From Arcobacter sp. (lineage in GTDB: Bacteria > Campylobacterota > Campylobacteria > Campylobacterales > Arcobacteraceae), in NCBI GenBank assembly GCA_965662175.1, contig CBFIGT010000050.1, forward strand, positions 1 to 15,973: DNA of 15,973 nt. The letters run 5' to 3'. The number at the start of each line of letters is the position of its first letter. The first letter of the stretch is position 1. A program made the position numbers and the translations under genes. Positions 1-15,147 of the stretch are shown piece after piece. A model generated the notes under the pieces. The model did not search any database. It was given only the letters and a program-made list of their open reading frames with translations, and was not told the DNA's origin.

Positions 1-466
1 TATTTAGTATCCCTTTTTCTGTAAAGTTATCTATTTCGATAGCTTCTCTTGAGATTCCTTTTGTTTTTTCACCCCAGTTCTTTTTTGTACTTAGTTTATT
101 TCCATCTTGTATTCTTATGGAAAAATCATTACATGCGGTAAAATATCTTGGAGTAATATCAACAATTTTATCATCTTCATATACAAAATCACATAGTAAA
201 GCAACTTCCGCTTCAACTTGTAAATTGTCAGCTTCTCTATTATGAGTTTTTATAATTTCATCACAAATAGGGTAAGTTCCTAAAAAAGAGTCATGTCCTG
301 GAATATAAAAAGGAAACATTCCTTTTGGAGCATCTTTCTCTTTTGTTTCAATAACAGAAAACTCATCAGCTTCACCAGCTTCTCCTAAATGATTAGCAAA
401 GTTTCCTGCAACACCAAATCCTAAATAATCTTTTAATTCTTCTAAATTTAAATTAATTTTATTCAT
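1..466 (-). CDS. DUF5718-like protein, partial (3' end runs off the window); N-terminus resembles the fumarylacetoacetate-hydrolase (FAH) superfamily
   Basis: Not in the ORF track because it is truncated. Manual translation from ATG 466: MNKINLNLEELKDYLGFGVAGNFANHLGEAGEADEF...KGMFPFY...LQVEAEVALLCD...CNDFSIR...KKNWG, open to the window edge. AAGG Shine-Dalgarno upstream. Family recalled from the GVAGNFAxHL motif. Confidence 0.7.
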   Translation of the reverse strand, partial: MNKINLNLEELKDYLGFGVAGNFANHLGEAGEADEFSVIETKEKDAPKGMFPFYIPGHDSFLGTYPICDEIIKTHNREADNLQVEAEVALLCDFVYEDDKIVDITPRYFTACNDFSIRIQDGNKLSTKKNWGEKTKGISREAIEIDNFTEKGILN

Positions 467-528: not shown

Positions 529-616
529 ATTTAAGTGAGGATTTTGTGCGTAGTTTTGGTTGTTTAAAAATTCTTGTCTAAATTTAACAGCGCCTAAAAC
601 TATCCTCACTATAAAT
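529..616. repeat. 88-bp imperfect palindrome (REP/MITE-like element or structured RNA)
   Basis: Outer arms AGTGAGGAT (534-542) / ATCCTCACT (602-610), extended by ATTTA/TAAAT with one bulge. Nested arms AGTTTTGG (552-559) / CCTAAAACT (593-601) and TGTTTAAA (561-568) / TTTAACA (583-589). Confidence 0.6.
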
Positions 617-670: not shown

Positions 671-705
671 TTTATAGACAAGAAGTTTAACCTCTTATCT
701 ATAAA
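671..705 (-). terminator. Stem-loop just downstream of the CoA-lyase operon, probable intrinsic terminator or 3'-stabilising hairpin
   Basis: Minus-strand RNA UUUAUAGAUAAGAGG-UUAAA-CUUCUUGUCUAUAAA forms a 15-bp stem. Its two non-Watson-Crick positions are G-U wobbles only on the minus strand. It lies about 20 nt after the stop at 725; the U-tract is short (ACUUU). Confidence 0.65.
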
Positions 706-724
706 TAAAACTTAATATTTTATA

Positions 725-1708
725 TTAAGCAAAAAATCTTTTTGTTACTTCATCTAATAGTTTAGCACCTGAAAAGTGTGCTCTTTGAACTAATTCCCAG
801 AAATATCTATATGTTGCTCTATCGTGTAACTCACCATCATATTGGATTGGTCCCCACTCAGCATCTTGTGCAGCTAATAAAATATTTTGTGCAGCTTCTA
901 ACTCTGTAAAATCAGGTTTCATAGCATCAACGATTGCTTGTACTTGTGTTGGGTAAATTGACCACATTCTCATGAACCCGAACTCATTTCTAGCTCTTTC
1001 AGCATCTTTATAAGTTTGGTATGGGTTTTTAAGGTCAAGTGTAACATTGTGACAAGGAATTACATGATTTTGGATTGCAGCTTGTGCAACTTTTGCTTTA
1101 GCAGCTCCAATTAATCTATGGTCAAATTGTCCTGGGCTTCTCATATTTGATGCTGGAATTGCACCTTGGTAACCAGATACGAAATCCATTAGACCGAAAT
1201 CTAAAACTTGTAACCATGGTAAAGTTGCAGTTTTCTCAACATCTTGTAATGCACCATGAGTTTCAATTAAGATATGAATTGGAATCTCTCTTGTAATTCC
1301 TGATTTTTTAGCAACTTCTTGAATATACTCAATTTGTGCTTTTGCATCTTCATATGAAGTTGATTTTGGCAATGTAATATATGCTAATTTTTCACCAGCA
1401 CCTGGTACTAAAATATCAACATCTTGTTTCCAATCTGGATGAGAGAAATCATGGATTCTAGTTCCTGCCATTGCATATGGGTTAGCATCTGAGTTAACTA
1501 CTCTAACAATCATTTCAGCATGTTCAACTTCTTTACCAGTTTCTGCTCCATCTTCACAGTCACAAGTAATATCAAAAACAGGTCCTAATTTCTTTTGCAT
1601 TTCGAAACCTTTTAGGATAAGCTTTTCGCTTCCTGCAAAGTGTTCACAAGTTGGGATGATTGGTAAAGATTTACCAGATTCAAATAGTGCTTCGTTTGGA
1701 TGTGTCAT
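725..1708 (-). CDS. CitE/HpcH-HpaI superfamily acyl-CoA lyase/thioesterase (327 aa)
   Basis: Motifs DCEDGA, RIH, ITLPK, LIET (Mg Glu), FGLMDF (Mg Asp), WSIYPTQ and GELHD (C-terminal Asp). The N-terminus HPNEALF...EHFAGSEKLI resembles the stand-alone CitE-like subfamily I recall from Betaproteobacteria. SD AAAAGGA. Confidence 0.85.
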   Translation of the reverse strand: MTHPNEALFESGKSLPIIPTCEHFAGSEKLILKGFEMQKKLGPVFDITCDCEDGAETGKEVEHAEMIVRVVNSDANPYAMAGTRIHDFSHPDWKQDVDILVPGAGEKLAYITLPKSTSYEDAKAQIEYIQEVAKKSGITREIPIHILIETHGALQDVEKTATLPWLQVLDFGLMDFVSGYQGAIPASNMRSPGQFDHRLIGAAKAKVAQAAIQNHVIPCHNVTLDLKNPYQTYKDAERARNEFGFMRMWSIYPTQVQAIVDAMKPDFTELEAAQNILLAAQDAEWGPIQYDGELHDRATYRYFWELVQRAHFSGAKLLDEVTKRFFA

Positions 1709-1734
1709 ATTTTTTTCCTTTTGTTAAATTTAAT

Positions 1735-2793
1735 CTATTTTTTTGTTTTTTTCTTTGGGATTACAACAGTGTAATCTAAATCAAGTACTACATTTTTTAA
1801 GTACTTACCATCTTCACCTTTTGGATTCTCAATCTCGCTTGATTTCTGATTTTTAACAGCTATCGTTCTTAATCTTAATAATCCAATATCTTCTCTTTTA
1901 TGGTCAATAGTATCAATCACTTCAGTATATGCATAGATTGTATCACCTGCATAAGTTGGGTTCGCATGAGCCCCAGAATTAATCGCATACATCCATTGAG
2001 CATTTTGCAATCCATTAAATGAAATAGCTCTTGCCATAGATATTACAATTCCACCATACATAAGTCTTTCACCCATAGGTGAAGATTTCATCATATGGTC
2101 ATTGAAGTGTACTTTTGCATTATTTTGATATAACTTAGTTGCTAATGTATGGTCACTGTTATCAACTGTAATACCCTCAGGGTGATTTAATCTCTCACCT
2201 TTTTCATAATCTTCAAAAAAGTATTTTCCACCTGTAGCATCAGTATCAACACACTTAATCTCTGGTAAATTAATCTCATCTAAAATAGGAGTAGTTGCTG
2301 CAAAAGTAGGAACTTCATTAATTCCAGATTTTGTTTCCTTATCTTTTTTATGAACCATTACCCATCTTTTGAAGTTTAATACCTCATCACCATTTTGCTT
2401 ATACCCAATAGAGTGTACATAAACAACTCCACTTTTACCATTTGAGTTCTCTTTTAATCCAATAACAGTAGATGTCATAGATACAGTATCTCCAACATAT
2501 ACAGGGTTAGGAAAAGCAATTTCTGCATAACCTAAGTTTGCAATTGCATTTAAAGAGATATCTTGTACAGATTTCCCAAATGTTAAGTGAAACATTAATG
2601 TATCATCAATTGGTCTTTTTTCATATCCCATCTCGTTTGCAACTATATCCGATGAATGTAATGCAAATCTAGAACCTGTGAAAGCGATGTATAAAGATAC
2701 ATCACCCTCACTAATTGTTCTAGGTAGTGGATGAATTATTTTTTGACCTATTGAGAAATCTTCAAAAAAGTTACCCATATTAATTTTAGACAT
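1735..2793 (-). CDS. mch: Mesaconyl-C1-CoA hydratase / beta-methylmalyl-CoA dehydratase homologue (double hot-dog MaoC family)
   Basis: GNFFEDF, PRT, GDVSLY, SRFALHSS, FHLTFGKSVQDISLNAIANLGYAE, STVIGLKENSNGKSGVVYV and RWVMV closely match Rhodobacter/Chloroflexus Mch as I recall them. A second FFEDY repeat is present. Start moved from GTG 2799 to ATG 2793 because AAGGAG (2806-2801) lies 7 nt upstream. Confidence 0.85.
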   Translation of the reverse strand: MSKINMGNFFEDFSIGQKIIHPLPRTISEGDVSLYIAFTGSRFALHSSDIVANEMGYEKRPIDDTLMFHLTFGKSVQDISLNAIANLGYAEIAFPNPVYVGDTVSMTSTVIGLKENSNGKSGVVYVHSIGYKQNGDEVLNFKRWVMVHKKDKETKSGINEVPTFAATTPILDEINLPEIKCVDTDATGGKYFFEDYEKGERLNHPEGITVDNSDHTLATKLYQNNAKVHFNDHMMKSSPMGERLMYGGIVISMARAISFNGLQNAQWMYAINSGAHANPTYAGDTIYAYTEVIDTIDHKREDIGLLRLRTIAVKNQKSSEIENPKGEDGKYLKNVVLDLDYTVVIPKKKTKK

Positions 2794-2804
2794 TATCACT
2801 CTCC

Positions 2805-5324
2805 TTATTTACCAAATAGGTTTTGACCTAAAGATTTATATGTTTCATATAGAGTAATCATTTTCTTAGCCCATTTAATTTTACACTTATCAATAAGTTT
2901 ATCATTAAATAAGATTACCTCTTTACCCTCTTTCTCAGCTGCTTCATATTTAGCAATCATCTCTTCATACTCTTGAACTTCTTTTCGTTTTGGAGTAAAA
3001 ATATCATTGATATACTCAACTTGAACTGGATGAATAAGTGCTTTACCATCAAATCCTAAATCAAATGCATCTTTTGTTGAAGCTTCACAAGCAAACTCAT
3101 CATGAACATCATAATGTGGTCCATCAATTACTGTTTTACCATAAGCTTTTGCTGATAATGCAATTCTAGCTAGGTAATTAAACATAGCTTTTGAACCTCT
3201 TTTAATATCAATTTGAAGTCTATTTGCTAAGTTATTAGAACCAACAACAATAACCTCTGTTTTTGTACTAGCAGCACAAATATCAGGAGAGTTTAATATT
3301 GCTAATGGAGTTTCAATCATAACCATCATTGTTAAATTAGGGTCAAGCTCATTTATAGCTTTTTCAGCCTCTAAAACTTGCTCAACAGTCTCAATTTGAG
3401 AGAATAAAATTCCATCAATATCAATCTCTTTAGCTAATTCCATATCTAATCTAAATGATTCTGTTCCAACATTATTTACTCTTAAAATTCTTTCAGATTC
3501 ACCAAACTTAGCACCATCTTCTTTGTAAACTTCTCTGATTACTTCTCTTGCTGTTTTCTTTTGTTCATCTAAAATAGCTTCTAAATCAAATACTACAGTA
3601 TCAGCTAAAACTGTTTTTGCTTTTTGTACATATCTTTTATTATTTGATGGAACAAATAACATTGATCTTCTAGCTTTGTACTCAATAATCTCTTCACCTG
3701 TCTCTTTTGCATGATATTGTTCATGTAATTGTTTAACAAGTTGTTTTCTTAATACTTTTCCATTTTTTGTTCTTGGATAATCTTTCATTCCAAAAATCTC
3801 TTTTGGAGCTTTATATTTTGCTAAGTTTGCTTGTGCAAAAGCTAATACTTCAGCCTCTTTTTCAGCTGTTAACTCTTCATGTCCAATTACAGCAATACCA
3901 ACAATAGTTTTATCTTTTCCAATATCTAAACCAAAAGCAACACAATCAGCAACTGCATCGTGAGTTTTTACAACTCTTTCGATTTCATGTGGAGATACTC
4001 TAAATCCAAAAGTATTGATAATATCATCTTTTCTACCTATGAACCAAATATATCCATCTTTATCTCTTTTTGCATAATCACCTGTAAAGAAGTAACCATC
4101 ATGTCTAGCTTTTGCTGTTTCTTCTTCTAATTGCCAATACTCTAAGAATAATCCTGGATCATCAACTCCAATACAAATCATTCCCTCTTCTTCTAAACCA
4201 ACCTCTTCTAATGTTTCAGGGTCTAAAAGTTTTACAATATGTCCTGGTTGAACAAACCCAGCTGATCCTGGTCTAATTGGATTATTTTTAGAGTGAGAAA
4301 TATAGTATGAACACTCAGACATTCCGATTGCTTCGAAAATATCTTGATTGAATTTTTCTCTCCATAATCCTAACATTTCATCAGATAAATGCTCACCAGC
4401 ACTCATACAATATCTTAATGATGGACAATCTTCAATTGTAAAATCAGTTTTTTGAATAATTTGTCTATAAATTGTTGGAACCCCAATAAATATTGTACAT
4501 TGGTGTTTTTTAATTAAATTAATCCAAGTTGATGCATCATTTGCACCCTCATAAGCAATTACTGTATGACCATTAAATAATGGGTCCATAAGTGCAGAAC
4601 CTAATACATATGTCCAGTTAAATTTTCCAGAGTGCATGATTCTATCATTCTCTTTAAAATCAAACCAATATTCAGTTGCAGGAGTTCTTCCAACAAGTGA
4701 TCTATGTGAATGTAGTACACCTTTTGGGTAACCAGTTGTTCCTGATGTATATACTAAATAAGCAGGTTCACCTGATTTTGATTTATAGTGATTAGGAGTT
4801 GCGTCACCATTTTTTAATATATCATTTAAACAGTATACATTTATACCTTTTGGTTTTGCTAAATCATCAACACTATCTGTTCCTGCAACAATAATTGTTT
4901 TTAAGTTATCAACATTTTCTAAATAAGGAACTAAGTTTGTATACATAGTAGCACTTAAAACAATAGCACTAGCTTGTGAATCTTCAGCTAAATATTTAAC
5001 CTCTGAACCACTTAAAAGTGTAGAAGTTGGTACTGCTATAATTCCAGCTTTTATTGCACCAAAGAAAGAGATTGGATAAGCTAAAGAGTTTTTTAAACAT
5101 ACTAAAACTCTATCTCTTGGACCAATTCCAATACTTGTAAGGAAGTTAGCAACTTGGTCTGATCTTGTTGCTAAATCTTTATAAGTTATCTCATCCGTTC
5201 CTAATTTATCATCTTCGATAATCATAGCTGTACTGTTCTCTTTAGGTGTTCCTACGTGAGCAGATGTACAAGCTACACCGATATTTAAAAATTCAGGTAC
5301 TTCAATTTTAATTGTTGAACTCAT
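2805..5324 (-). CDS. Fusion protein: AMP-forming acyl-CoA ligase (aa ~1-535) plus C-terminal CitE/malyl-CoA lyase-thioesterase-like domain (aa ~549-839)
   Basis: Adenylation motifs YTSGTTGYPKG, AIGMSE, FFTGD, GRKDD and PRTKNGK, then RSMLFVP, FDLE, RVN, MIETP and LGFDGKALIHP. Single uninterrupted frame. Confidence 0.9.
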   Translation of the reverse strand: MSSTIKIEVPEFLNIGVACTSAHVGTPKENSTAMIIEDDKLGTDEITYKDLATRSDQVANFLTSIGIGPRDRVLVCLKNSLAYPISFFGAIKAGIIAVPTSTLLSGSEVKYLAEDSQASAIVLSATMYTNLVPYLENVDNLKTIIVAGTDSVDDLAKPKGINVYCLNDILKNGDATPNHYKSKSGEPAYLVYTSGTTGYPKGVLHSHRSLVGRTPATEYWFDFKENDRIMHSGKFNWTYVLGSALMDPLFNGHTVIAYEGANDASTWINLIKKHQCTIFIGVPTIYRQIIQKTDFTIEDCPSLRYCMSAGEHLSDEMLGLWREKFNQDIFEAIGMSECSYYISHSKNNPIRPGSAGFVQPGHIVKLLDPETLEEVGLEEEGMICIGVDDPGLFLEYWQLEEETAKARHDGYFFTGDYAKRDKDGYIWFIGRKDDIINTFGFRVSPHEIERVVKTHDAVADCVAFGLDIGKDKTIVGIAVIGHEELTAEKEAEVLAFAQANLAKYKAPKEIFGMKDYPRTKNGKVLRKQLVKQLHEQYHAKETGEEIIEYKARRSMLFVPSNNKRYVQKAKTVLADTVVFDLEAILDEQKKTAREVIREVYKEDGAKFGESERILRVNNVGTESFRLDMELAKEIDIDGILFSQIETVEQVLEAEKAINELDPNLTMMVMIETPLAILNSPDICAASTKTEVIVVGSNNLANRLQIDIKRGSKAMFNYLARIALSAKAYGKTVIDGPHYDVHDEFACEASTKDAFDLGFDGKALIHPVQVEYINDIFTPKRKEVQEYEEMIAKYEAAEKEGKEVILFNDKLIDKCKIKWAKKMITLYETYKSLGQNLFGK

Positions 5325-5337
5325 ATTATATTCCTTA

Positions 5338-6471
5338 CTATATTTGACCGTATGGCCAGTTTTCTTTAAATGTATGTAACGGCATTTTATTTAGCACAGT
5401 TAACGCAAACGCTTGGTCCTCTTTATTTAAACTTCTTAAAGCATAACCTCTTAAAAGATTTTGTAATGATTTACCAAACATTGGTGGATCTAACATTTCA
5501 CCTTTATATCTAATAGCACCACTTAATAAAGCATCAGCTTCAATTGCAGCTTTTAAGATTTCAATATCTTTTGCTATTTCATTTGGACTTGGAGTAAATG
5601 CAACTTTACAAACATTAATATGATTTGGTGTAATAACTTGTTTACCTGTTAATCCCATAGCTGTTTCTCTTTTTGCATGCTCATAAACATGTCTTGAAGC
5701 ATCATCACCATGTAAATCTAACCATCTTCTAATCTCTTTTTTCTCAACACATGAATCAGGTAATGAATTTGGAGTAAGTAAAACCTCAACACCACCAATT
5801 ACACCCTTACCTTTAACTCTAGCTTCCATAGTTAGAATATTAAAGAAAGTTTGTAATTCATCTATCCAACCCTCAGGTGTGATTTTGTAAGCCATTGCTT
5901 TAGAGAAGTCATGGATACCAAATACAACATGTTGAACAGTTGAGTGACTCATTAACTGATCAGCAATTTTAAGCGACTTTGGATGCTCAATAATTGGTTG
6001 AATTTGTAAATTTGAACCAATAGAAACTAACCAAGAAGATAAATCTCTAATCTCAGCATCTCCATAAACTTCACCAGCTTTTGCTAAAACGATTGCATCA
6101 ATATATTTGTGCACTTGCTTTAACATTTTTAAATCCTCTTCATACTCATCAGTTCTGAATGGATTAATTCTAATAGCTATTTGAAAATCTCTTTCAGGAA
6201 ATTTTGGTAACTCTTGGATTAATAACTCTCTAGACATTGCTTTTTGTCTACAACCATCTTCTAAGTCAAATAAAACTGTGTGTGCTTTTGTTTTATAAGC
6301 ATGTTTTTGTAATCTTAACTTAGCTTGTTCCATAGTTTCATAACTTCCATCAAGTGGATTAAACTTGATTGGAGGATAATAAATCTGAATTCCAGGCCAA
6401 TGCCCACCTAATACTGGTTTTAAATCATCATTTGCTGTTAATTTTGATAAGTCGATAATTGACGATGTCAT
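5338..6471 (-). CDS. Divergent CitE/malyl-CoA lyase superfamily protein (377 aa), first gene of the operon
   Basis: FDLEDG, IRIN, IIEHP (Mg Glu), FGIHDF (Mg Asp), GLTGKQVITP, FTPSP and GEMLDPP (catalytic Asp position). SD AAAAGG. Confidence 0.85.
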   Translation of the reverse strand: MTSSIIDLSKLTANDDLKPVLGGHWPGIQIYYPPIKFNPLDGSYETMEQAKLRLQKHAYKTKAHTVLFDLEDGCRQKAMSRELLIQELPKFPERDFQIAIRINPFRTDEYEEDLKMLKQVHKYIDAIVLAKAGEVYGDAEIRDLSSWLVSIGSNLQIQPIIEHPKSLKIADQLMSHSTVQHVVFGIHDFSKAMAYKITPEGWIDELQTFFNILTMEARVKGKGVIGGVEVLLTPNSLPDSCVEKKEIRRWLDLHGDDASRHVYEHAKRETAMGLTGKQVITPNHINVCKVAFTPSPNEIAKDIEILKAAIEADALLSGAIRYKGEMLDPPMFGKSLQNLLRGYALRSLNKEDQAFALTVLNKMPLHTFKENWPYGQI

Positions 6472-6584
6472 ATTATTTACCTTTTGTTTTTTTTATATTG
6501 TTTCTTACATAACTGTAAAACATTTTGATTAAAAATATAATCAAATCCGTCTTGCTGAGTGAAATTTATCCATACTTAAAATTA

Positions 6585-6593
6585 ATTATAACA
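6585..6593 (-). promoter_or_regulatory. Extended -10 sigma70 promoter of the CoA-lyase operon
   Basis: Minus strand reads TGTTATAAT, a perfect TGnTATAAT, with AT-rich upstream sequence. Implies a ~105-nt 5' leader. Confidence 0.55.
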
Positions 6594-6685
6594 TAAATTT
6601 AATAATTAGTTTTTAAATTTATAAATTTTTTATAATTTCTATAAAGCCCTATTTATGGGACAATATCAACTAAGCTATTTTTTAG

Positions 6686-6700
6686 TTTCACATTGTGAGA
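6686..6700. promoter_or_regulatory. Candidate IclR-family operator
   Basis: 15-bp near-palindrome TTTCACA-T-TGTGAGA between the divergent promoters. A weaker 10/15 copy, TCTTGCTGAGTGAAA, lies at 6550-6564. Confidence 0.45.
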
Positions 6701-6840
6701 AAAAAATATTCAAAATTCTTAGTATCCAAAATAATTTCTTTTAAATTTAATGAAATATTAGAAATATTTATACAAATAGGAACAGATTAAGAATTAATTT
6801 AGTTATTGCCTTTAAATTTTCAAACTATTTAAAATTAAAA

Positions 6841-6849
6841 TGGTAAAAT
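6841..6849 (+). promoter_or_regulatory. Extended -10 promoter of the IclR-family gene
   Basis: TGGTAAAAT, 26 nt upstream of GTG 6876. Confidence 0.5.
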
Positions 6850-6875
6850 TAAAAAAATTAAAAAGAAGATATAGC

Positions 6876-7601
6876 GTGCAAAATCAAAACAAGTCCTTTA
6901 TAAAAGGCTTATCTGTTTTAAAAACTATTATGAAAGCAAATAAGCCTTTAACAGCAAACTACTTATGTCAAATGCTAGTTATAGATAAAAGTACTATGTC
7001 AAGACTAATAAATACACTTATTAGGGAGGGTTTTATTGAGTATGTGGATAATTCAAAAGAGATAATATTAAGTGATATTATGAGAAAAGTTTCTCAAAAA
7101 GAGAATAGAGAAAAGATTGTTGAAAGAACTGCTGCTATACTTGATGAGATATTTTACTTAACAGATGAGTGTGCTTATATGGGTATTTTGGATAATAACG
7201 AGGTTTTATATTTAAATCAAGTTGATAAATCAACTAGAATTTTGAAAGTTAGAGATTCAGTAGGAACACACGCACCACTTCATGTAAATGCTTTTGGAAA
7301 GATTTTATTAGCTTTTCAAAATGTAGATTTAAAAAAATTAGATTTAAAAAAATACACAGTTAATACAATTACTACAGTTACCAAACTTCAAAAAGAGATT
7401 GATTTAGTAAAACACAGGGGTTATGCAATAGGATTTGAAGAGTATGAATTTGGACTTTTTTCAATAGCTGTACCATATTTCAATAATAAAAAAGAGTTTG
7501 TGGGAACAGTTGGAATTTCAGGACTTTCAGCGAGGGTAAATCAAGAAAAATGTCATGAAATAGGACAAAAAATATTTAAACTTGTAAATCCAGTTATTTA
7601 A
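6876..7601 (+). CDS. IclR-family transcriptional regulator
   Basis: N-terminal HTH (SFIKGLSVL...IDKSTMSRLINTLIREGFI) and C-terminal effector domain (VGTHAPLHVNAFGKILLA, TITT, RGYA, E.E.GL.SIAVP, ISG). Likely start GTG 6876 rather than ATG 6840. Confidence 0.92.
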   Translation: MQNQNKSFIKGLSVLKTIMKANKPLTANYLCQMLVIDKSTMSRLINTLIREGFIEYVDNSKEIILSDIMRKVSQKENREKIVERTAAILDEIFYLTDECAYMGILDNNEVLYLNQVDKSTRILKVRDSVGTHAPLHVNAFGKILLAFQNVDLKKLDLKKYTVNTITTVTKLQKEIDLVKHRGYAIGFEEYEFGLFSIAVPYFNNKKEFVGTVGISGLSARVNQEKCHEIGQKIFKLVNPVI

Positions 7602-7978
7602 TCTTTTTTTATTTTTATTAATATTTTATTATTTCTATCCCTATGAATAATCTCTTTATTTGGATTTTCAAATATCTCTTTCAAAAAACCAGCTTTATAG
7701 GATTTGTGTAAATATTTTCTATTAAAACTCTCTAAACTTTCACACTCAAATGTTGATTGACATATTTTATCTTCATAAATTTTCAAATCTAATAGAGTTT
7801 TTCCAGCACTATAAATTTGTACTTGAGTAAAATTATTAAATTTTGAAATAAATCCCTTATCATAAAACTTCATTGTTGGAGTTTTTATTAAAATTGTTGC
7901 ACTTGAAGATTTAATTGCTACTTTGTTACTACAAGCAATAAATAGAAATGGAAGAATCAAACTAAGCAAAAACTTCAT
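7598..7978 (-). CDS. Hypothetical lipoprotein
   Basis: Signal peptide MKFLLSLILPFLFIA-C with lipobox-like FIAC; 126 aa; stop overlaps the IclR stop (TTAA). Confidence 0.75.
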   Translation of the reverse strand: MKFLLSLILPFLFIACSNKVAIKSSSATILIKTPTMKFYDKGFISKFNNFTQVQIYSAGKTLLDLKIYEDKICQSTFECESLESFNRKYLHKSYKAGFLKEIFENPNKEIIHRDRNNKILIKIKKD

Positions 7979-8011
7979 AATTTATACCACTCCCCTTTAA
8001 TTTTGAGTTTT

Positions 8012-8024
8012 ATTTTACTATAAT
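8012..8024. promoter_or_regulatory. Back-to-back -10 boxes for queH (+) and the lipoprotein gene (-)
   Basis: TATAAT at 8019-8024 (+) and TAAAAT at 8017-8012 (-) in a 67-bp divergent gap. Confidence 0.4.
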
Positions 8025-8045
8025 ACGATTAAATAAAGGATTTAA

Positions 8046-9119
8046 ATGCTTGTTCATATATGTTGTTCTGTAGATAGTCACTATTTTTTAGAAAGACTTC
8101 AAGAAGATTTTCCAGAAGAAAAATTAGTTGGATTTTTTTATGACCCTAATATTCATCCTTATAATGAGTATCTATTAAGACTTAAAGATGTAGAGTATTC
8201 TTGTAAAAAATTAGGTATAGAGTTAATTGAGGGTCCTTATAACTTAGAAGAGTGGTTAAAAAAAGTAAAAGGTTTAGAAAATGAACCTGAAAAAGGTGAT
8301 AGATGTACAGTTTGCTATGATGATAGATTAGAAACAACTGTAAAAAAAGCCATTGAATTAGGTCATGATAAATTTACAACAACCCTTTTAATCTCTCCAA
8401 AAAAATCCCAAGAAAAACTAGAGTTTGTGGGAAGTGCTTTAGAAGAAAAGTTCCATGTGAAATGGATTTTCAAAGATTATAGAAGTGGAAAAGGTGTTGA
8501 AGAGCAAGCTAAAGTAGTAAAAGAAAACTCATTTTATAGACAAAACTATTGTGGTTGTTTATTTGGATTAGCACCTCAAAGAGAGCATCAAGATAAACTA
8601 ATGGATGAGATGTTTTTACCAATATCTAACCAAACCATGCCCCAATCAATTGAGAGTCGCCTTGAACTTTATAGCCAAAGAGATAATCTTGATGAAACAG
8701 AAATACCATACAAAATAGTAAAACAAAGATTTTTGAATTATAGATTATTAAATGCAAAAGTAAAAGTTGATAAAGAGATTATTCCCTCATATTTTTTATG
8801 TTATTCAACTATTAAAAACGGCAAAACAAAAGGTACAATTGCCTTTGAAAAAGCAGAAATACACTATTTAAACAAAGATGAAGTTAAAATCATAACAATA
8901 GATACATTTAATGATATTGCCCAATCTCATTTTAGAGATGTAAAAGACCTGATTTATCATCCCCTTACTTTTGATGCTGAACTAAAAATAAGAGAGAAAA
9001 TCACTCAAAATCCTTATGGATTATCAGCAATTATTATATTAGATAAAGTTGAAGATAAAAAATATGAGATAAATATGGATGCTAGAATTTATGAAGATAT
9101 TAAAGAGGTAATCGTTTAA
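8046..9119 (+). CDS. queH: Epoxyqueuosine reductase QueH (DUF208), long form
   Basis: HICC, PNIHP..EY..R, EPEKGDRCTVC...RL, FTTTL.ISP.K and YRQNYCGC motifs. Confidence 0.9.
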   Translation: MLVHICCSVDSHYFLERLQEDFPEEKLVGFFYDPNIHPYNEYLLRLKDVEYSCKKLGIELIEGPYNLEEWLKKVKGLENEPEKGDRCTVCYDDRLETTVKKAIELGHDKFTTTLLISPKKSQEKLEFVGSALEEKFHVKWIFKDYRSGKGVEEQAKVVKENSFYRQNYCGCLFGLAPQREHQDKLMDEMFLPISNQTMPQSIESRLELYSQRDNLDETEIPYKIVKQRFLNYRLLNAKVKVDKEIIPSYFLCYSTIKNGKTKGTIAFEKAEIHYLNKDEVKIITIDTFNDIAQSHFRDVKDLIYHPLTFDAELKIREKITQNPYGLSAIIILDKVEDKKYEINMDARIYEDIKEVIV

Positions 9120-10162
9120 TGAAACTACTTGTTTGTGCGATGGAAACCTCCTCAAATATTCATTTAGCCGAACTTAAAAAATACCTAAACAAAGATGTTG
9201 AACTTTTTGGTATTTTTGATAAAAAACTTGGAAATCCAAATTATGATATAGAACAGCTTGCAATTATGGGATTTATTGATGCGATAAAAAGGCTTCCATT
9301 TTTTTTCAAACTAAAAGATGAAATGGTTGAGCTTTCAAAAGATGCAGATAAAGTTTTACTTATGGATTCAAGTGGTTTTAATCTTCCCCTAGCAAAATCT
9401 ATTAAAAAAAAATATCCAAATAAAGAGATTATTTATTATATTTTACCTCAAGCTTGGGCTTGGAAAAAAGGAAGAATTCCTAAAATAGAAAAATATTGTG
9501 ACAAACTTTGCTCTATTTTGCCCTTTGAAAAAGATTATTATAGACAAAAAAATAAAATCACCTATGTGGGTCATCCTCTACTAGATGAAATAAAAACATT
9601 CAAAACAAATATAAGTAAAAATAATATCATAGCCTTTATGCCAGGGAGTAGAAAAACAGAGATTCAAAATCTTATGCCTATTTTTAAAGAACTAATCAAA
9701 AAAATTCCAAATAAGGAGTATATTTTAATTATTCCTAAAAAATTTGATAAAGAGTATATTAAAAAAATTTATGGAGATATTAGTGATTTTAAAATCTCAA
9801 ATAATACCCATGAAACATTAACAAAAGCAGATTATGCTTTTATTTGTAGTGGCACAGCAACCCTAGAAGCAGCACTTATAGGAACACCTTTTACACTTAG
9901 TTATATAGCTAAAAAACTTGACTATTTTATAGGTTCAAGACTTGTAAAACTACCAGCTGTTGGTCTTGCTAATATATTTTTTCATAAAATGGGAAAAGCT
10001 TTAATTCATAGTGAATTTTTACAAGAGAATGTAAGTGTTGAAAACCTTCTAAATGACTATAAAAACAAAGATGAAAAAAAATTTTTAGAGAATGCAAAAA
10101 TACTTAGAGAGTATTTAAAAAATGGAAGTTCTAAGAATACAGCTCACATAATTCAAAACTAA
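9119..10162 (+). CDS. lpxB: Lipid-A-disaccharide synthase
   Basis: E.SSN, MGF, DS..FNL.LAK, YILPQAWAW, ILPFE, YVGHPL, PGSRKTEI, SGTATLE and GLANI motifs; upstream of fabZ-lpxA. Confidence 0.95.
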   Translation: MKLLVCAMETSSNIHLAELKKYLNKDVELFGIFDKKLGNPNYDIEQLAIMGFIDAIKRLPFFFKLKDEMVELSKDADKVLLMDSSGFNLPLAKSIKKKYPNKEIIYYILPQAWAWKKGRIPKIEKYCDKLCSILPFEKDYYRQKNKITYVGHPLLDEIKTFKTNISKNNIIAFMPGSRKTEIQNLMPIFKELIKKIPNKEYILIIPKKFDKEYIKKIYGDISDFKISNNTHETLTKADYAFICSGTATLEAALIGTPFTLSYIAKKLDYFIGSRLVKLPAVGLANIFFHKMGKALIHSEFLQENVSVENLLNDYKNKDEKKFLENAKILREYLKNGSSKNTAHIIQN

Positions 10163-10171
10163 TATTTTTTT

Positions 10172-10180
10172 TGATAGAAT
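10172..10180 (+). promoter_or_regulatory. Internal extended -10 promoter for fabZ-lpxA-clpX-mreBC
   Basis: TGATAGAAT preceded by a T-tract, 33 nt upstream of the fabZ ATG. Confidence 0.5.
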
Positions 10181-10213
10181 ATATGCCTTAAATAAAACTA
10201 TATAGGAAAATAT

Positions 10214-10657
10214 ATGTTAGACGTTACAGAAATTCAAGAGATACTTCCTCACAGATACCCATTTTTATTAGTTGATAGAATCACTGATATGGAAAAGGGT
10301 AAAACAATTATTGGATATAAAAATATTTCAATAAGTGAGCCTGCATTTATGGGACACTTTCCAGGTCACCCAATTTATCCAGGTGTTTTAATCTTAGAGG
10401 GTATGGCACAAGCAGGTGGAATTTTAGCACTTAAAAGCAATGACTTAACAAATGAAGAGCTTAAAAATAAAGTTATTTACTTTATGAGTATTGATGGAGC
10501 AAAATTTAGAACACCTGTAAAACCAGGGGATAAATTAGAGTATAGAATTGAAGTTAAAAAACTAAGAGGAACATTAATCGTTCTTGCTGGTAAAGCTTAT
10601 GTTGATGACAAACTAGTTTGTGAAGCTGAACTTAAAGCAATGGTAGTGGATAAATAG
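10214..10657 (+). CDS. fabZ: 3-hydroxyacyl-ACP dehydratase
   Basis: [13 protein letters not shown] and [22 protein letters not shown] motifs. Confidence 0.97.
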
Positions 10658-10665
10658 GTTCTTTT

Positions 10666-11454
10666 ATGAGTAATATTCATAAAACAGCTATCATCGAAGA
10701 TGGAGCAATAATCGGAGATGATGTTACAATTGGTGCATACACTATTATTGGTGCTAATGTAAAAATTGGAAATGGAAATATAATAGGTTCTCACACTCTA
10801 ATTGAGGGTAAAACTACAATTGGTGATTTTAATAAAATCTATTCCCATGCAGCCCTTGGAACTGACCCTCAAGACTTAAAATTTGATGGTGAAGATGTTG
10901 AGTTAGTAATTGGAAATAGAAATAAAATTAGAGAATATACACTTTTTAATCCAGGAACTAAAGGTGGTGGAAGCATCACTAAAATTGGTGATAATAACCT
11001 ATTTATGGGTTATACTCATGTGGCACATGATGTTATTATTGGAAATAATTGTGTTTTTGCAAATGTGGCAACACTTGCAGGTCATGTTGAGATTGATGAT
11101 AATGTTGTAGTTGGTGGATTAACTCCAATACACCAATTTTGTAAACTTGGAAGCCACTCAATGATTGGTGGAGGTTCTGTTGTAACGCAAGATATTCCAC
11201 CTTTTTGTTTAGCTGAGGGAAATAGAGCAAATGTTCGAGGACTAAACTTAAATGGTCTAAGAAGAAGATTTGAAAGAAATGATATAAATGCTATAAAAAA
11301 AGCATATAAAGATATATTTGAGTCAGGACAACCTATTCAAGAAATAGCTAATGAACTTGTTAAAACAGAAGATAATATCTATGTTTTAGAGTTGGCTAAT
11401 TTTGTAATAAATACAAAAAGAGGTATTCCTTTTATAAGAAAGCAGGAGAAATAA
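10666..11454 (+). CDS. lpxA: UDP-N-acetylglucosamine O-acyltransferase
   Basis: Hexapeptide repeats, PQDLKF, HVAHD, LAGHV, HQF and [10 protein letters not shown] motifs. Confidence 0.97.
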
Positions 11455-11459
11455 ATAGT

Positions 11460-12686
11460 ATGGCAAAACTTAAGTGTGATTTTTGTGGTTCTGAAGATAG
11501 CAAACAAAATCCAGTAATATCAGGTGACAATGCAACAATATGCAAGGCTTGTGTAAATGCAGCATATGACATTATGAGTGGCAAAGAGCCTGATTTGGAC
11601 CAAGAGTCTTTAACACAAAATGAAAAAACTCAAGAATCTACAGTAAAACTTTTAGCTCCTAGCGAACTAAAAGCTTTATTAGATGATTATGTAATTGGAC
11701 AACATAGAGCTAAAAAAGTTTTATCAGTAGCTGTTTATAATCACTATAAAAGAATTTTTAGAAAAGATGAGATAGATGAAGATACAGAGATTAATAAATC
11801 AAATGTACTTTTAATAGGGCCAACAGGTTCAGGAAAAACTCTTCTAGCTCAAACAATTGCAAGATATTTAGATGTTCCTTTAGCAATTGCTGATGCAACT
11901 TCATTAACAGAAGCTGGTTATGTTGGGGATGATGTTGAAAATGTTATTACAAGACTATTACAAGCAGCTGATGGTGATGTAAAAAAAGCTGAAACAGGGA
12001 TTATCTTTATTGATGAGATTGACAAAATTGCTAGAATGAGTGAAAATAGATCAATAACTAGAGATGTTTCAGGGGAAGGTGTTCAACAAGCTATGCTTAA
12101 AATCATAGAGGGTTCTGTTGTAAATGTTCCACCAAAAGGTGGAAGAAAACATCCAGGTCAAGATGCAATTCAAGTTGATACTACAAATATTTTATTTGTT
12201 TGTGGTGGTGCTTTTGATGGTTTAGAAGATATTATAAAAAGAAAAAAGGGTGGAAACACTTTAGGATTTAACCAAGAAAAACATGGTAAAAAAGATGAAC
12301 ATAATTTAATTACAATGGTTGAAGCTGATGATTTGGTTAAATATGGTTTAATTCCAGAGTTAATTGGTAGACTTCATATGATAGCTACTTTAAACGAAAT
12401 CACTGAGGATGATATGGTTCATATATTAACAGAGCCAAAAAATGCTCTAATAAAACAATATATCAAACTTTTTGATATGGATAAGGTAAAATTGGAGTTC
12501 GATAAAGAAGCACTTTTAGAGATTGCAAAAAAGGCAATTGAGAGAAAAACAGGTGCAAGGGGTTTAAGATCTATACTAGAAGATATAATGTTAGATATAA
12601 TGTATGATTTACCAAATTACAAAGATAAAACTATTATTATCACAAAAGAAGTGGTTTTAGATAAAAAAGAACCAAAAATAGCATAA
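11460..12686 (+). CDS. clpX: ATP-dependent Clp protease ATP-binding subunit ClpX
   Basis: N-terminal C4 zinc finger (CDFC...CKAC), Walker [13 protein letters not shown] pore loop, IDEID and [10 protein letters not shown]. Confidence 0.97.
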
Positions 12687-12706
12687 ATTAAAAGGAGTTG
12701 TAAATA

Positions 12707-13738
12707 ATGTTTCTAGACAAATTGATTGGATTTTTTTCAAGCGATATGGCCATTGACTTAGGGACTGCTAATACTATCGTTTCTGTAAAAGGAAAAGGTA
12801 TTATTATCAACGAACCCTCAGTTGTAGCTGTTCAACATGATAAATATGGGAAAGATAAAATATTAGCTGTAGGTGTTGAAGCTAAACAAATGATTGGTAA
12901 AACACCTTTAAACATTCAAGCGGTACGTCCTATGAGAGATGGTGTTATTGCTGACTTTGAGATGACTGAAAGAATGATAAGATATTTTATTGAAAGAGCA
13001 CACTCTAGAAAATCTTTTATCAGACCTAGAATCATTATTTGTATTCCTTATGGAATTACACAAGTTGAAAGAAAAGCTGTAAAAGAATCAGCTTTAAGTG
13101 CAGGTGCTAGAGAAGTATTTTTAGTAGAAGAGCCAATGGCAGCTGCAATTGGTGCTGGAATTCCTGTATCTGACCCATCTGGATATGTGGTTGTTGATAT
13201 TGGTGGTGGAACTACTGAGATTGGTGTTACATCACTTGGTGGACTTGTTTTATCAAAATCAATTAAAATTGCAGGTGATAGATGTGATAAAGCAATTATT
13301 GATTATGTAAGACAAAATTACAACTTATATATAGGGGAAAGAACTGCTGAAACTATTAAAATAGAGATAGGTACAGCTGTAAAACTTGACCAAGAGCTTA
13401 AAATTAGAGTAAAAGGTAGAGATAACTCAGGACTTCTTTCGACTATTGAATTAGGGTCTGAGGGTGTTAGAACAGCTATTAAAGAACCTCTTAGAGAAAT
13501 AGTAGCAGCTGTAAGATCAGTACTTGAAGATATGCCACCTGATTTAGCTGGTGATGTTGTTGATAATGGTGTTACATTAACAGGTGGTGGTGCATTAATT
13601 AGAGGATTAGATACATATTTAGCTGATATTATTAAATTACCTGTAAAAGTTGCTGAAGACCCATTATTAGCTGTTGCTTATGGTACAAGCAAAGTATTAG
13701 ACGAGGAAGCATTACTTAGATTAATCTCAAATGAATAG
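12707..13738 (+). CDS. mreB: Rod shape-determining protein MreB
   Basis: IDLGTANT, EPSVVA, EEPMAAAIGAG, DIGGGTTE and LTGGGAL motifs. Confidence 0.97.
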   Translation: MFLDKLIGFFSSDMAIDLGTANTIVSVKGKGIIINEPSVVAVQHDKYGKDKILAVGVEAKQMIGKTPLNIQAVRPMRDGVIADFEMTERMIRYFIERAHSRKSFIRPRIIICIPYGITQVERKAVKESALSAGAREVFLVEEPMAAAIGAGIPVSDPSGYVVVDIGGGTTEIGVTSLGGLVLSKSIKIAGDRCDKAIIDYVRQNYNLYIGERTAETIKIEIGTAVKLDQELKIRVKGRDNSGLLSTIELGSEGVRTAIKEPLREIVAAVRSVLEDMPPDLAGDVVDNGVTLTGGGALIRGLDTYLADIIKLPVKVAEDPLLAVAYGTSKVLDEEALLRLISNE

Positions 13739-14549: not shown

Positions 14550-15147
14550 TCCCATCAACTTTATCCCAAGTTAAACCCTCTTCTTTTTGCCCTTTAAACA
14601 TATTATAAATATATCTAGCAAACATATCTGTTTCTAAATTTACCTTTGTACCTATTTTATATGTTTTAAATAGTGTATTTTCCACAGTATGAGGAATAAT
14701 AGTAAGTCTAAAAGAGTCATTCATCACTTCATTTACAGTTAATGAAACTCCATCAATAGTCACACTTCCTTTTGGAATAATATATTTTGCATATTCATTT
14801 GGTAAACATATTATAAAATCCCATGAGTTACCACTTTGTTTTATTGATTTTATTGTTCCTAAACAATCCACATGACCTTGAACAATATGTCCCTCAAACC
14901 TATCTCCCATCATCATGGCAGGTTCCATATGAACTTTACCTTTGTAGTTTTCCATTGCTAATATTTTTTGGGACTCAGGTGAAAGTTCTACAGAAAAAGT
15001 ACCACTTGAAACTCTAACAACTGTTAGACATGCACCATTTATTGCAATTGAATCACCTACTTTTGGAACATATTTTGCTTTTAGTGTAAGCTGGTTTGAC
15101 TTTAAACTTAAAACCCAAGCCATCTCTCTTATTAATCCTGTAAACAC
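14533..15147 (-). CDS. ribE: Riboflavin synthase (alpha chain; ribC in E. coli nomenclature)
   Basis: MFTG, GDSIAINGACLTV, GHIVQGHVD, KGSVTIDGVSLTV and VNLETD motifs; GTG start with SD AAAGGA. Confidence 0.95.
   Translation of the reverse strand: MFTGLIREMAWVLSLKSNQLTLKAKYVPKVGDSIAINGACLTVVRVSSGTFSVELSPESQKILAMENYKGKVHMEPAMMMGDRFEGHIVQGHVDCLGTIKSIKQSGNSWDFIICLPNEYAKYIIPKGSVTIDGVSLTVNEVMNDSFRLTIIPHTVENTLFKTYKIGTKVNLETDMFARYIYNMFKGQKEEGLTWDKVDGIMASY

What the first reader, a model, noticed from the sequence alone, without database searches (positions are those of the whole stretch)
725..7601. IclR-linked operon with three CitE-type CoA-ester lyase domains, mesaconyl-CoA hydratase and an acyl-CoA ligase: candidate undescribed C5-dicarboxylate/glyoxylate pathway
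Seen: four tightly spaced co-directional genes (gaps 13, 11 and 26 nt), an upstream extended -10, a downstream hairpin and a divergent IclR gene. Known: Mch interconverts mesaconyl-C1-CoA and beta-methylmalyl-CoA in the ethylmalonyl-CoA pathway, the 3-hydroxypropionate bicycle and the methylaspartate cycle. CitE-superfamily Mcl cleaves beta-methylmalyl-CoA to glyoxylate + propionyl-CoA and condenses glyoxylate with acetyl-CoA, and Mcl2 hydrolyses malyl-CoA. None of those pathways is, to my knowledge, established in Campylobacterota, and no CoA-transferase, ccr, ecm, mct, meh or citD/citF gene is in this window. Inference: a compact ligase-initiated route, e.g. mesaconate or methylmalate -> CoA ester -> beta-methylmalyl-CoA -> propionyl-CoA + glyoxylate -> malyl-CoA -> malate, or the reverse, co-assimilating or detoxifying glyoxylate with propionate/acetate.
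Basis: partly seen in the sequence, partly recalled or inferred. Interest (0 to 1): 0.85.

Follow-up and report, generated by a model that had tools for sequence, protein, structure and literature searches.

The report
Candidate citramalate–methylcitrate acetyl-CoA assimilation operon
This conserved four-gene operon, already noticed in print but not tested in any paper found, likely lets bacteria that lack the glyoxylate shunt turn two acetyl-CoA into malate through a five-carbon (citramalate/mesaconate) detour coupled to the methylcitrate cycle, which would explain a long-unexplained gene cluster.

Summary
The four genes, their spacing and the divergent IclR gene are real. The cluster is not undescribed. 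It matches A. butzleri ab1917-ab1921 (Miller 2007) and the extra genes of the Methylophilaceae 'methylcitric acid cycle' cluster (Beck 2014), and this scan reported it before on other DNA.

Shown here: all five units travel together (72 of 80 loci; the other 8 are cut by contig ends). In 121 Arcobacteraceae, all 86 holders also carry methylcitrate synthase, against 5 of 35 non-holders. The two distant holders without prpB/prpC carry methylmalonyl-CoA mutase instead. All 20 holders tested have a single-chain class I fumarase. No isocitrate lyase, class III CoA-transferase or methylaspartate lyase was found in the holders searched. Only two of the three CitE domains keep a full catalytic set; the fused one does in 0 of 75 copies.

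Best reading (inferred, about 0.55): pyruvate + acetyl-CoA -> citramalate -> mesaconate -> mesaconyl-CoA -> methylmalyl-CoA -> propionyl-CoA + glyoxylate, closed by the methylcitrate cycle; net 2 acetyl-CoA -> malate. Against it: A. butzleri reportedly does not grow on acetate, and the entry step is uphill unless the thioester is hydrolysed.

The parts
5338..6471 (-). Gene A: divergent CitE-superfamily enzyme (377 aa) with an intact catalytic set (E71-D72, R101, E162, D188, lid D328). Equivalent of A. butzleri AB1917 and Methylophilaceae cyl3 by description. Predicted citramalate synthase (condensation plus thioester hydrolysis).
   Evidence: PF03328 E=6e-8; best PDB hit CLYBL 5VXC, weak; catalytic residues invariant in 77 of 77; directly upstream of the ligase in every locus where both are held
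3690..5324 (-). Gene B, N-terminal part: AMP-forming acyl-CoA ligase (about residues 1-545). Predicted mesaconate-CoA ligase.
   Evidence: PF00501 E=3e-73; below every NCBIfam cut-off shown; 26% to E. coli Acs and 24% to PrpE; 56-58% to the Methylophilaceae-type ligases
2805..3686 (-). Gene B, C-terminal part: CitE-like domain related to the Mcl2 (malyl-CoA thioesterase) group but degenerate; likely non-catalytic here. A separate gene (cyl2) in several Gammaproteobacteria.
   Evidence: PF03328 E=3e-32; 0 of 75 copies with the full set E-D/R/E/D; all 11 module copies in a wider alignment lack at least one such residue while the Ruegeria control keeps all; mean column identity 64% against 81% and 75% for A and D
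1735..2793 (-). Gene C: mesaconyl-C1-CoA hydratase (Mch) homologue, double hot-dog fold
   Evidence: PDB 4E3E E=3.5e-107 and 8HGN beta-methylmalyl-CoA dehydratase E=7.8e-102; PF19315 above cut-off; RipB/Ich 107 bits against a cut-off of 340
725..1708 (-). Gene D: CitE-superfamily enzyme (327 aa) of the uncharacterised 3QQW/3R4I group with an intact catalytic set (E52-D53, R84, E149, D175, lid D296). Predicted beta-methylmalyl-CoA lyase and/or malate synthase.
   Evidence: PDB 3QQW E=1.4e-137; residues invariant in 70 of 70; directly upstream of prpB-prpC-prpD in G151, G351 and G487
6876..7601 (+). Divergent IclR-family regulator (GTG start chosen by homology; an in-frame ATG lies at 6840)
   Evidence: PF01614 and PF09339; best NCBIfam BhcR 119 bits against a cut-off of 350; present in 34 of 80 loci, so accessory
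6564..6574 (-). Conserved upstream motif (TATGGATAAAT here), a candidate promoter or operator element
   Evidence: exact TATGGATWAAT in 23 of 35 IclR-type upstream regions
6585..6593 (-). Perfect extended -10 (TGTTATAAT); present here but not conserved
   Evidence: 1 of 35 upstream regions
672..704 (-). 15-bp hairpin after gene D with no U-run; role unclear
   Evidence: z=-3.9, 0 of 200 shuffles as stable; not called as a terminator
2..466 (-). DUF5718 gene, cut by the contig end; a frequent but not core downstream neighbour
   Evidence: PF18985; in 48 of 80 loci, none of them gammaproteobacterial

Best explanation
The operon is a conserved five-unit CoA-ester module that likely converts pyruvate plus acetyl-CoA into propionyl-CoA plus glyoxylate and, coupled to the methylcitrate cycle, would turn two acetyl-CoA into malate without isocitrate lyase. 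Inferred steps: (1) gene A condenses acetyl-CoA and pyruvate and hydrolyses the thioester to (S)-citramalate; (2) the class I fumarase (elsewhere in this genome, in the operon in many relatives) dehydrates it to mesaconate; (3) the ligase makes mesaconyl-C1-CoA at the cost of ATP to AMP; (4) Mch hydrates it to beta-methylmalyl-CoA; (5) gene D cleaves it to propionyl-CoA and glyoxylate; (6) A or D condenses glyoxylate with a second acetyl-CoA to malate; (7) PrpC, AcnD/PrpF, aconitase and PrpB return propionyl-CoA plus oxaloacetate as pyruvate plus succinate, and succinate is re-oxidised to oxaloacetate. With malic enzyme and pyruvate dehydrogenase the same loop would oxidise acetyl-CoA fully where 2-oxoglutarate dehydrogenase or succinyl-CoA synthetase is missing. 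The fused CitE domain is likely a non-catalytic partner. Shown: gene content, linkage, residues, co-occurrence. Inferred: every activity, the split of work between A and D, and the direction.
For: (a) All five units together in 72 of 80 loci, 70 in the same order; the other 8 end at a contig edge. Also together in all 5 further gammaproteobacterial holders fetched. (b) A propionyl-CoA sink accompanies the module. In one sample of 121 Arcobacteraceae, 86 of 86 A-holders have PrpC-type hits, against 5 of 35 non-holders; the match holds inside mixed genera g73 and g74. In 151 Campylobacterales, 11 of 11 Mch holders have PrpB-level hits, against 10 of 140 others. The two holders with no PrpB/PrpC hit (G152, G257) have methylmalonyl-CoA mutase; in G257 the fumarase lies in a run oadA-oadB-fum-x-ligase-mcm-carboxylase genes. 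(c) In G151, G351 and G487 the order is cyl2-mch-D-prpB-prpC-prpD, facing gntR-malic enzyme-...-A-ligase, followed by fumarase and acnB (G151) or ppsR-ppsA (G351, G487). (d) A single-chain class I fumarase is in 20 of 20 holders; the 2 non-holders have only the short two-subunit type; it lies within 10 kb of A in 33 of 80 loci; class I fumarases hydrate mesaconate (PMC4682846). (e) No true isocitrate lyase in the holders searched; malate synthase in 3 of 20. (f) Ten of 10 Arcobacteraceae holders have PrpC or PrpB but no PrpE/Acs-level hit, so a dedicated propionate entry is missing; four distant holders have a PrpE-level gene, plus Acs-level ones, besides the module ligase, so the ligase is not simply PrpE or Acs. 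(g) No transporter family recurs next to the module in the 80 loci (read from sequence starts). (h) Holder G008 has no pyruvate:ferredoxin oxidoreductase alpha subunit. (i) Precedents: CitE-type lyase/thioesterases make malate; pyruvate plus acetyl-CoA flux was pulled through citramalyl-CoA by thioester hydrolysis in engineered E. coli (PMC11367265).
Against: A. butzleri is reported not to grow on acetate, propionate or both, and to show no succinate oxidation (data not shown in PMC2147049); the cycle needs succinate oxidation. Citramalyl-CoA formation is unfavourable (1:2.5 at 200-fold pyruvate excess), and the haloarchaeal enzymes do not hydrolyse it (PMC3832036); the passages read on the mycobacterial enzyme show hydrolysis of malyl- and methylmalyl-CoA only. 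Only two intact CitE enzymes are left for three C-C reactions and two hydrolyses, and methylmalyl-CoA must escape hydrolysis. This genome and G100 also have pyruvate:ferredoxin oxidoreductase, another way to assimilate acetate. Absence of isocitrate lyase is weak evidence: only 1 of 151 Campylobacterales and 111 of 400 Gammaproteobacteria had it, so 0 of 6 holders in that sample can be chance. Co-occurrence counts are among kin and give no direction by themselves. In G152 and G257 the mutase lies beside a propionate-type ligase gene and may serve propionate use alone. No MDH and only a contig-edge MQO-like fragment were found in this genome.
Confidence: 0.55

Rival explanations
1. Catabolism of an external C5 dicarboxylate (mesaconate, citramalate or methylmalate): the ligase starts the route, and propionyl-CoA and glyoxylate go to the methylcitrate cycle and to malate.
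For: Needs no uphill citramalate synthesis; fits the ligase, Mch, fumarase and the link to a propionyl-CoA sink; fits A. butzleri not growing on acetate.
Against: No recurring transporter gene in 80 loci. The module is in 86 of 121 Arcobacteraceae and, by the paper's table, in all nine Methylophilaceae compared, which looks like central metabolism. It is linked to sdh, acnB, malic enzyme and ppsA. A shorter route through citramalyl-CoA lyase would not need Mch.
Confidence: 0.18
2. Reverse direction, as Miller 2007 proposed: glyoxylate plus propionyl-CoA -> methylmalyl-CoA -> mesaconyl-CoA -> mesaconate -> citramalate -> pyruvate plus acetyl-CoA, a version of the second 3-hydroxypropionate loop without Mct and Meh, serving glyoxylate or propionate co-assimilation.
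For: Citramalyl-CoA cleavage is the favoured direction; an Mcl2-like domain could hydrolyse mesaconyl-CoA, and the G151 copy lacks only one conserved residue; partial 3-HP bicycles are reported in sulfur-oxidising Gammaproteobacteria (PMC6593406).
Against: It would compete with PrpC for propionyl-CoA, yet every holder tested has a separate sink; 10 of 10 Arcobacteraceae holders have no PrpE/Acs-level gene; no glyoxylate-forming gene recurs in the clusters; Miller's source of propionyl-CoA needs methylcitrate synthase to run backwards, which is strongly unfavourable (established knowledge).
Confidence: 0.13
3. The ligase is an acetate, propionate or malate CoA ligase, and the CitE and Mch proteins act as malyl-CoA cleavage or CoA-ester repair enzymes beside the TCA and methylcitrate cycles, with no through-going C5 cycle.
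For: In 10 Arcobacteraceae holders no Acs/PrpE-level gene was found while both non-holders have one; Beck 2014 labelled the gene prpE and Miller 2007 acetyl-CoA synthetase; D relatives occur without the module in Cupriavidus and Azoarcus plasmids.
Against: Eight distant holders keep separate Acs- or PrpE-level genes; this genome has two AckA and a Pta; the ligase is only 24-26% identical to PrpE and Acs; repair does not explain five units kept together with Mch and the fumarase across two phyla.
Confidence: 0.14

Closest known systems
Arcobacter butzleri RM4018 cluster ab1917-ab1921 (Miller et al. 2007, PMC2147049; section 9 read whole)
   Same: CitE, ligase-CitE fusion, enoyl-CoA hydratase, CitE, in that order; the paper proposes mesaconyl-CoA synthetase, Mch, malyl-CoA lyases, citramalate synthesis and a fumarase acting on mesaconate.
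   Different: There the class I fumarase (ab1921) is in the cluster; here it is on another contig and an IclR gene is divergent. The paper favours flux toward pyruvate plus acetyl-CoA and treats all three CitE domains as possible lyases. I matched by description and did not fetch the RM4018 sequences.
[quoted passage not shown]
   Same: A Methylotenera locus holds all five units at 36-66% identity to the window's proteins, among prp, sdh, fumarase, aconitase and malic-enzyme genes. The papers say the metabolite processed is unknown.
   Different: Ligase and cyl2 are separate genes, the regulator is GntR, and the prp genes are in the same cluster.
Citramalate cycle proposed for Rhodospirillum rubrum (as reviewed in PMC8307300; called unproven in PMC4682846)
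   Same: Acetyl-CoA + pyruvate -> citramalate -> mesaconate -> mesaconyl-CoA -> methylmalyl-CoA -> glyoxylate + propionyl-CoA, in cells without isocitrate lyase.
   Different: The proposal uses a CoA-transferase and regenerates pyruvate through propionyl-CoA carboxylase, mutase and oxaloacetate decarboxylase. Here an AMP-forming ligase would activate mesaconate and the methylcitrate cycle would regenerate pyruvate with no carboxylation and no B12. G257 and G152 resemble the original form.
Ethylmalonyl-CoA pathway lower half (Mch, Mcl1, Mcl2) and methylaspartate cycle
   Same: Mch homologue; cleavage of methylmalyl-CoA; malate from glyoxylate; the cyl2-mch pair mirrors a CoA-ester lyase and MaoC pair between mdh and sdhC in Ruegeria.
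   Different: No Ccr, Mal, class III CoA-transferase or methylmalonyl-CoA mutase found in this genome; A and D are not close to known Mcl (best E about 1e-8 to 1e-13); the Mcl2-like domain is degenerate.

Membership tests
A. butzleri ab1917-21 / Methylophilaceae cyl-maoC-'prpE' module | CitE, ligase (+CitE), Mch-type hydratase and CitE together, with a class I fumarase | tested here: met
   matched to the descriptions (RM4018 sequences not fetched)
Citramalate cycle (R. rubrum proposal) | Citramalate synthase activity | not testable with these tools
   A and D have intact CitE catalytic sets; activity unknown
Citramalate cycle (R. rubrum proposal) | Mesaconase (class I fumarase) gene | tested here: met
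   20 of 20 holders, this genome C39; mesaconase activity itself not tested
Citramalate cycle (R. rubrum proposal) | Mesaconate CoA-transferase | tested here: not met
   PF02515 in 0 of 5 holders including this genome; an AMP-forming ligase is present instead; other CoA-transferase families not searched
Citramalate cycle (R. rubrum proposal) | Propionyl-CoA handled by carboxylase and methylmalonyl-CoA mutase | tested here: not met
   no mutase in this genome; prpB, prpC, acnD and prpF are present; mutase present in G152, G153, G257
Citramalate cycle (R. rubrum proposal) | No isocitrate lyase | tested here: met
   only a PrpB-level hit with the KRCGHRP motif; genome 94% complete
Ethylmalonyl-CoA pathway | Crotonyl-CoA carboxylase/reductase | tested here: not met
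   TIGR01751 best 47 bits against a cut-off of 379 in this genome; 1 of 5 over the cut-off (G100), inside a PKS/NRPS cluster
Ethylmalonyl-CoA pathway | Ethylmalonyl-CoA and methylmalonyl-CoA mutases | tested here: not met
   PF01642 not found in this genome
Ethylmalonyl-CoA pathway | Mesaconyl-C1-CoA hydratase | tested here: met
   (sequence only)
3-hydroxypropionate bicycle, second loop | Mct (class III CoA-transferase) | tested here: not met
3-hydroxypropionate bicycle, second loop | Meh (mesaconyl-C4-CoA hydratase) | tested here: inconclusive
   the Mch query finds only the window's gene in this genome; no Meh-specific query was run
Methylaspartate cycle | Methylaspartate ammonia-lyase | tested here: not met
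   PF07476 over the cut-off in 0 of 5 holders
Methylaspartate cycle | Glutamate mutase | tested here: inconclusive
   glmS/E/L-like genes on C41 of this genome but in only 1 of 5 other holders, so not part of the module
Itaconate degradation (Ict-Ich-Ccl / RipABC) | Ich/RipB and Ccl/RipC orthologues | tested here: not met
   RipB 107 of 340 bits; RipC 55, 106 and 34 of 375 bits
Citrate lyase beta subunit (CitE proper) | TIGR01588 cut-off, with citD and citF | tested here: not met
   57, 144 and 22 bits against 443; no citD/citF in the window; genome-wide citD/citF not searched
Active CitE-superfamily lyase (fused domain of B) | E-D pair, Arg, Mg-binding Glu and Asp, called absolutely conserved in PMC3832036 | tested here: not met
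   0 of 75 copies complete; 11 of 11 incomplete; residue list

The most novel reading that the evidence does not exclude
This module is the genetic basis of a real citramalate cycle: a carboxylase-free, B12-free substitute for the glyoxylate shunt in which 2-methylisocitrate lyase replaces isocitrate lyase. It would run on a new citramalate synthase family (gene A), an AMP-forming mesaconate-CoA ligase and a CitE pseudo-enzyme subunit, with a swappable back half (methylcitrate cycle or methylmalonyl-CoA route), across Arcobacteraceae, Sulfurospirillum, Methylophilaceae and other Gammaproteobacteria.
Probability: 0.45. Interest if true: 0.9.

Novelty: new variant of a known kind. Interest (0 to 1): 0.6.

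Why it matters
Only a handful of routes for assimilating acetyl-CoA are established. The citramalate cycle has been proposed since 1997 and is still called unproven, and the substrate of the highly expressed Methylotenera methylcitrate cluster is stated to be unknown. If the reading holds, one small gene set answers both, explains how arcobacters without isocitrate lyase or pyruvate:ferredoxin oxidoreductase handle C2 units, and gives engineers a glyoxylate-shunt substitute needing no CO2 fixation or B12. The gene cluster and most enzyme guesses are not new; the value is a sharper, directly testable direction and gene-to-step assignment.

Tried and rejected
1. Ethylmalonyl-CoA, 3-HP, methylaspartate, itaconate and citrate-lyase readings: key partners not found. 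The Ccr hit in G100 is in a PKS/NRPS cluster. The glutamate-mutase-like genes here are not shared by most holders.
2. A TCA-bypass role as the only purpose: this genome has sucCD and an Oor-type alpha subunit, so it cannot be general.
3. Hidden isocitrate lyase in long open frames of G394 and G226: they are prpB genes in prp operons.
4. Gene A as a replacement for citrate synthase (its position in G151 suggested it): this genome has gltA.
5. Hetero-oligomer of A, D and the pseudo-domain: the complex predictor was not available, so this is untested.
6. DUF5718 as an FAH-family enzyme: the single-sequence model was useless (pLDDT 33), PDB searches found nothing, and the Atlas gave only a 0.84 lead to a cluster with 11% PF01557; a model from an alignment could not be run. 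Left open.
7. Co-transcription: contigs of relatives from RNA libraries (X5, X6, X8; two studies) cover all four genes and bridge each junction, but contigs cannot show a single transcript or a level, so this is not used as support. 4 of 20 listed runs were laid.
8. The homologue list for cyl2 and plasmid searches gave no functional names.
9. Rows dropped before counts: two weak MaoC hits (G085, G137); six GltA-only hits (G045, G575, G596, G603, G627, G639); G372 was not scored. G119 and G155 appear to be one genome (same coordinates).


Full report
OBSERVATION. The window holds four tightly spaced minus-strand genes, here A (5338-6471), B (2805-5324), C (1735-2793) and D (725-1708), and a divergent IclR gene ending at 7601. 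Gaps are 13, 11 and 26 nt. A, the C-terminal third of B, and D are PF03328 (CitE-like); the rest of B is an AMP-forming ligase; C is PF19315. C matches PDB 4E3E at E=3.5e-107 and beta-methylmalyl-CoA dehydratase 8HGN at 7.8e-102. D matches the uncharacterised 3QQW at 1.4e-137. A has only weak hits, best human CLYBL. The hairpin at 672-704 is real (z=-3.9) but lacks a U-run. The perfect extended -10 is found in 1 of 35 aligned upstream regions, while TATGGATWAAT is exact in 23 of 35. The closest relatives of A are in genomes named Arcobacter (95-97%); the host genome has 2.6 Mb and is 94% complete.

CONSERVATION. Of these, 72 hold all five units and 70 hold them in the window's order; the other 8 stop at a contig end. 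Named holders include Arcobacteraceae, Sulfurospirillum, Sedimenticolaceae, Chromatiaceae and Methylotenera. A is in 86 of 121 Arcobacteraceae and 6 of 400 Gammaproteobacteria; the five of these six not seen before all have the full set. IclR accompanies it in 34 of 80 loci, a class I fumarase in 33 and DUF5718 in 48.

ALREADY IN PRINT. Miller et al. 2007 (PMC2147049; passages and section 9 read) describe ab1917-ab1921: two CitE-like genes, a ligase-CitE fusion, a hydratase and a fumarase, said to resemble parts of the 3-HP and citramalate cycles. Beck et al. 2014 (PMC4109929; passages) list cyl1, maoC, cyl2, cyl3 and 'prpE' inside the Methylophilaceae methylcitric acid cycle cluster. PMC3728764 (passages and section 14) reports that cluster highly expressed in situ with the metabolite unknown. 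Ten library searches returned no biochemical or genetic test of these genes and no paper stating the coupled cycle below; the library lacks most subscription journals, and no supplements were read. Six earlier notes of this scan cover the same module on other DNA and reach a similar idea. I had written the idea down before seeing them, and I do not count them as support.

ONLY TWO INTACT LYASES. PMC3832036 (passages) names the residues conserved across the superfamily: an E-D pair, an Arg, a Mg-binding Glu and Asp, and a lid Asp, replaced by Glu in the R. sphaeroides thioesterase group. A keeps all in 77 of 77 copies and D in 70 of 70. The domain fused to the ligase has the full set in 0 of 75 copies. 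In a wider alignment all 11 module copies lack at least one, in different ways, and 7 of 11 lack the Mg-binding Asp, while a Ruegeria CoA-ester lyase used as control keeps all. That Ruegeria gene lies near an Mch homologue between mdh and sdhC and has the lid Glu, as do four stand-alone module copies. I infer descent from the Mcl2 group and loss of catalysis in the Arcobacter-type domain. The G151 copy lacks only one residue and may still be active. Mean column identity is 64%, against 81% for A and 75% for D.

HOST GENOME. Found: prpB (C132), prpC-acnD-prpF (C31), class I fumarase (C39), FumC, malic enzyme, pyruvate dehydrogenase, AcnB, GltA, SucCD, two Sdh/Frd sets, AckA and Pta, ActP, and a single-chain pyruvate:ferredoxin oxidoreductase (FumC and pyruvate dehydrogenase named from sequence recall). 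Not found: isocitrate lyase, malate synthase, Ccr, class III CoA-transferase, Mal, methylmalonyl-CoA mutase, Acs, PrpE, MDH, PpsA. The operon is therefore not the lower half of a known complete pathway in this genome, within the limit of its completeness.

WHAT TRAVELS WITH IT. In the same 121 Arcobacteraceae, PrpC-type hits (at least 400 bits, 371-403 aa frames) occur in 91 genomes: all 86 A-holders and 5 of the other 35. In genus g73 only 2 of 18 have A and both have PrpC, against 1 of the other 16. In 151 Campylobacterales all 11 Mch holders have a PrpB-level hit; 10 others do too. In G151, G351 and G487, D is directly followed by prpB-prpC-prpD, and the facing operon carries malic enzyme, A and the ligase, then fumarase and acnB or ppsR-ppsA. 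Two distant holders, G152 and G257, gave no PrpB or PrpC hit; both have methylmalonyl-CoA mutase. In G257 the fumarase gene lies between oxaloacetate decarboxylase genes and the mutase and carboxylase genes, close to the enzyme list of the proposed citramalate cycle (PMC8307300; passages). All 20 holders tested have a single-chain class I fumarase and the two non-holders do not. These are counts among kin, not independent events.

MECHANISM. A module that always comes with a propionyl-CoA sink, and in Arcobacteraceae without a PrpE- or Acs-level gene, is most simply a propionyl-CoA producer. With a fumarase able to act on mesaconate (PMC4682846; abstract and passages), the genes give: pyruvate + acetyl-CoA -> citramalate -> mesaconate -> mesaconyl-C1-CoA -> beta-methylmalyl-CoA -> propionyl-CoA + glyoxylate. 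The methylcitrate cycle returns pyruvate and succinate, and glyoxylate plus a second acetyl-CoA gives malate. The net result, 2 acetyl-CoA -> malate, is that of the glyoxylate cycle. Adding malic enzyme and pyruvate dehydrogenase gives full oxidation of acetyl-CoA, which would matter where 2-oxoglutarate dehydrogenase (Methylophilaceae) or SucCD (A. butzleri) is missing. I assign A to the entry step because it always precedes the ligase, and D to cleavage because it precedes prpB; both assignments are inference from gene order alone.

AGAINST. Miller 2007 report no growth of A. butzleri on acetate or propionate and no succinate oxidation (data not shown). Another arcobacter, strain CAB, grows on acetate (PMC3656443; passages), but I did not test whether it has the module. 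Citramalyl-CoA synthesis is uphill and haloarchaeal CitE enzymes do not hydrolyse it; the mycobacterial enzyme is shown hydrolysing malyl- and methylmalyl-CoA (bioRxiv 10.1101/322404; passages). Pulling the step by hydrolysis has worked in an engineered route (PMC11367265; passages). This genome has a pyruvate:ferredoxin oxidoreductase as an alternative, although holder G008 does not. Lack of isocitrate lyase says little: the background is 1 of 151 and 111 of 400 (the latter count includes four genomes marked unpublished, G192, G270, G415 and G425). Malate synthase is present in 3 of 20 holders.

VERDICT. A real, widely conserved, previously noticed and untested module. It works most likely like a citramalate cycle but fails membership of the proposed form on two features (CoA-transferase; carboxylase and mutase), so I file it as a new variant of a known kind. 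Confidence in the mechanism 0.55; interest 0.6.

Noticed in passing
window 2-466 (-); full-length copy L004:16001-16843: DUF5718 has motifs that resemble the fumarylacetoacetate-hydrolase superfamily (resemblance recalled from memory). The Atlas gave a 0.84 lead to a cluster with 11% PF01557; PDB searches were empty and the fold model failed.
   Followed up: partly
G000:C41:5144-9728 (L110): Glutamate-mutase-like S, E and L genes followed by an AMP-binding ligase, with no methylaspartate ammonia-lyase found in the genome; an E-like gene is also in G100. Function unexplained.
   Followed up: partly
L113:10-11156 (G100): A PKS/NRPS hybrid with thioesterase, crotonyl-CoA carboxylase/reductase and phosphopantetheinyl transferase in an Arcobacter-genus genome.
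   Followed up: partly
L120:1723-15939 (G257): Run of oadA, oadB, class I fumarase, a membrane gene, a propionate-type ligase, methylmalonyl-CoA mutase and carboxylase subunits, matching the back half of the originally proposed citramalate cycle.
   Followed up: partly
G000:C62:12252-12983: A second IclR paralogue, 51% identical to the window's regulator.
   Followed up: no
window 535-612: A second, imperfect inverted repeat between gene D and DUF5718; some relatives have about 130 extra bases between genes C and D.
   Followed up: no
G000, G351, G487: No malate dehydrogenase found; G351, G487 and G008 have a divergent MQO-family gene of about 450 aa, and this genome has only a contig-edge fragment.
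   Followed up: partly
window 7598-15972: Ordinary housekeeping neighbours: a small lipoprotein, queH, then lpxB, fabZ, lpxA, clpX, mreB, mreC, riboflavin synthase and mnmG (named from sequence recall).
   Followed up: no
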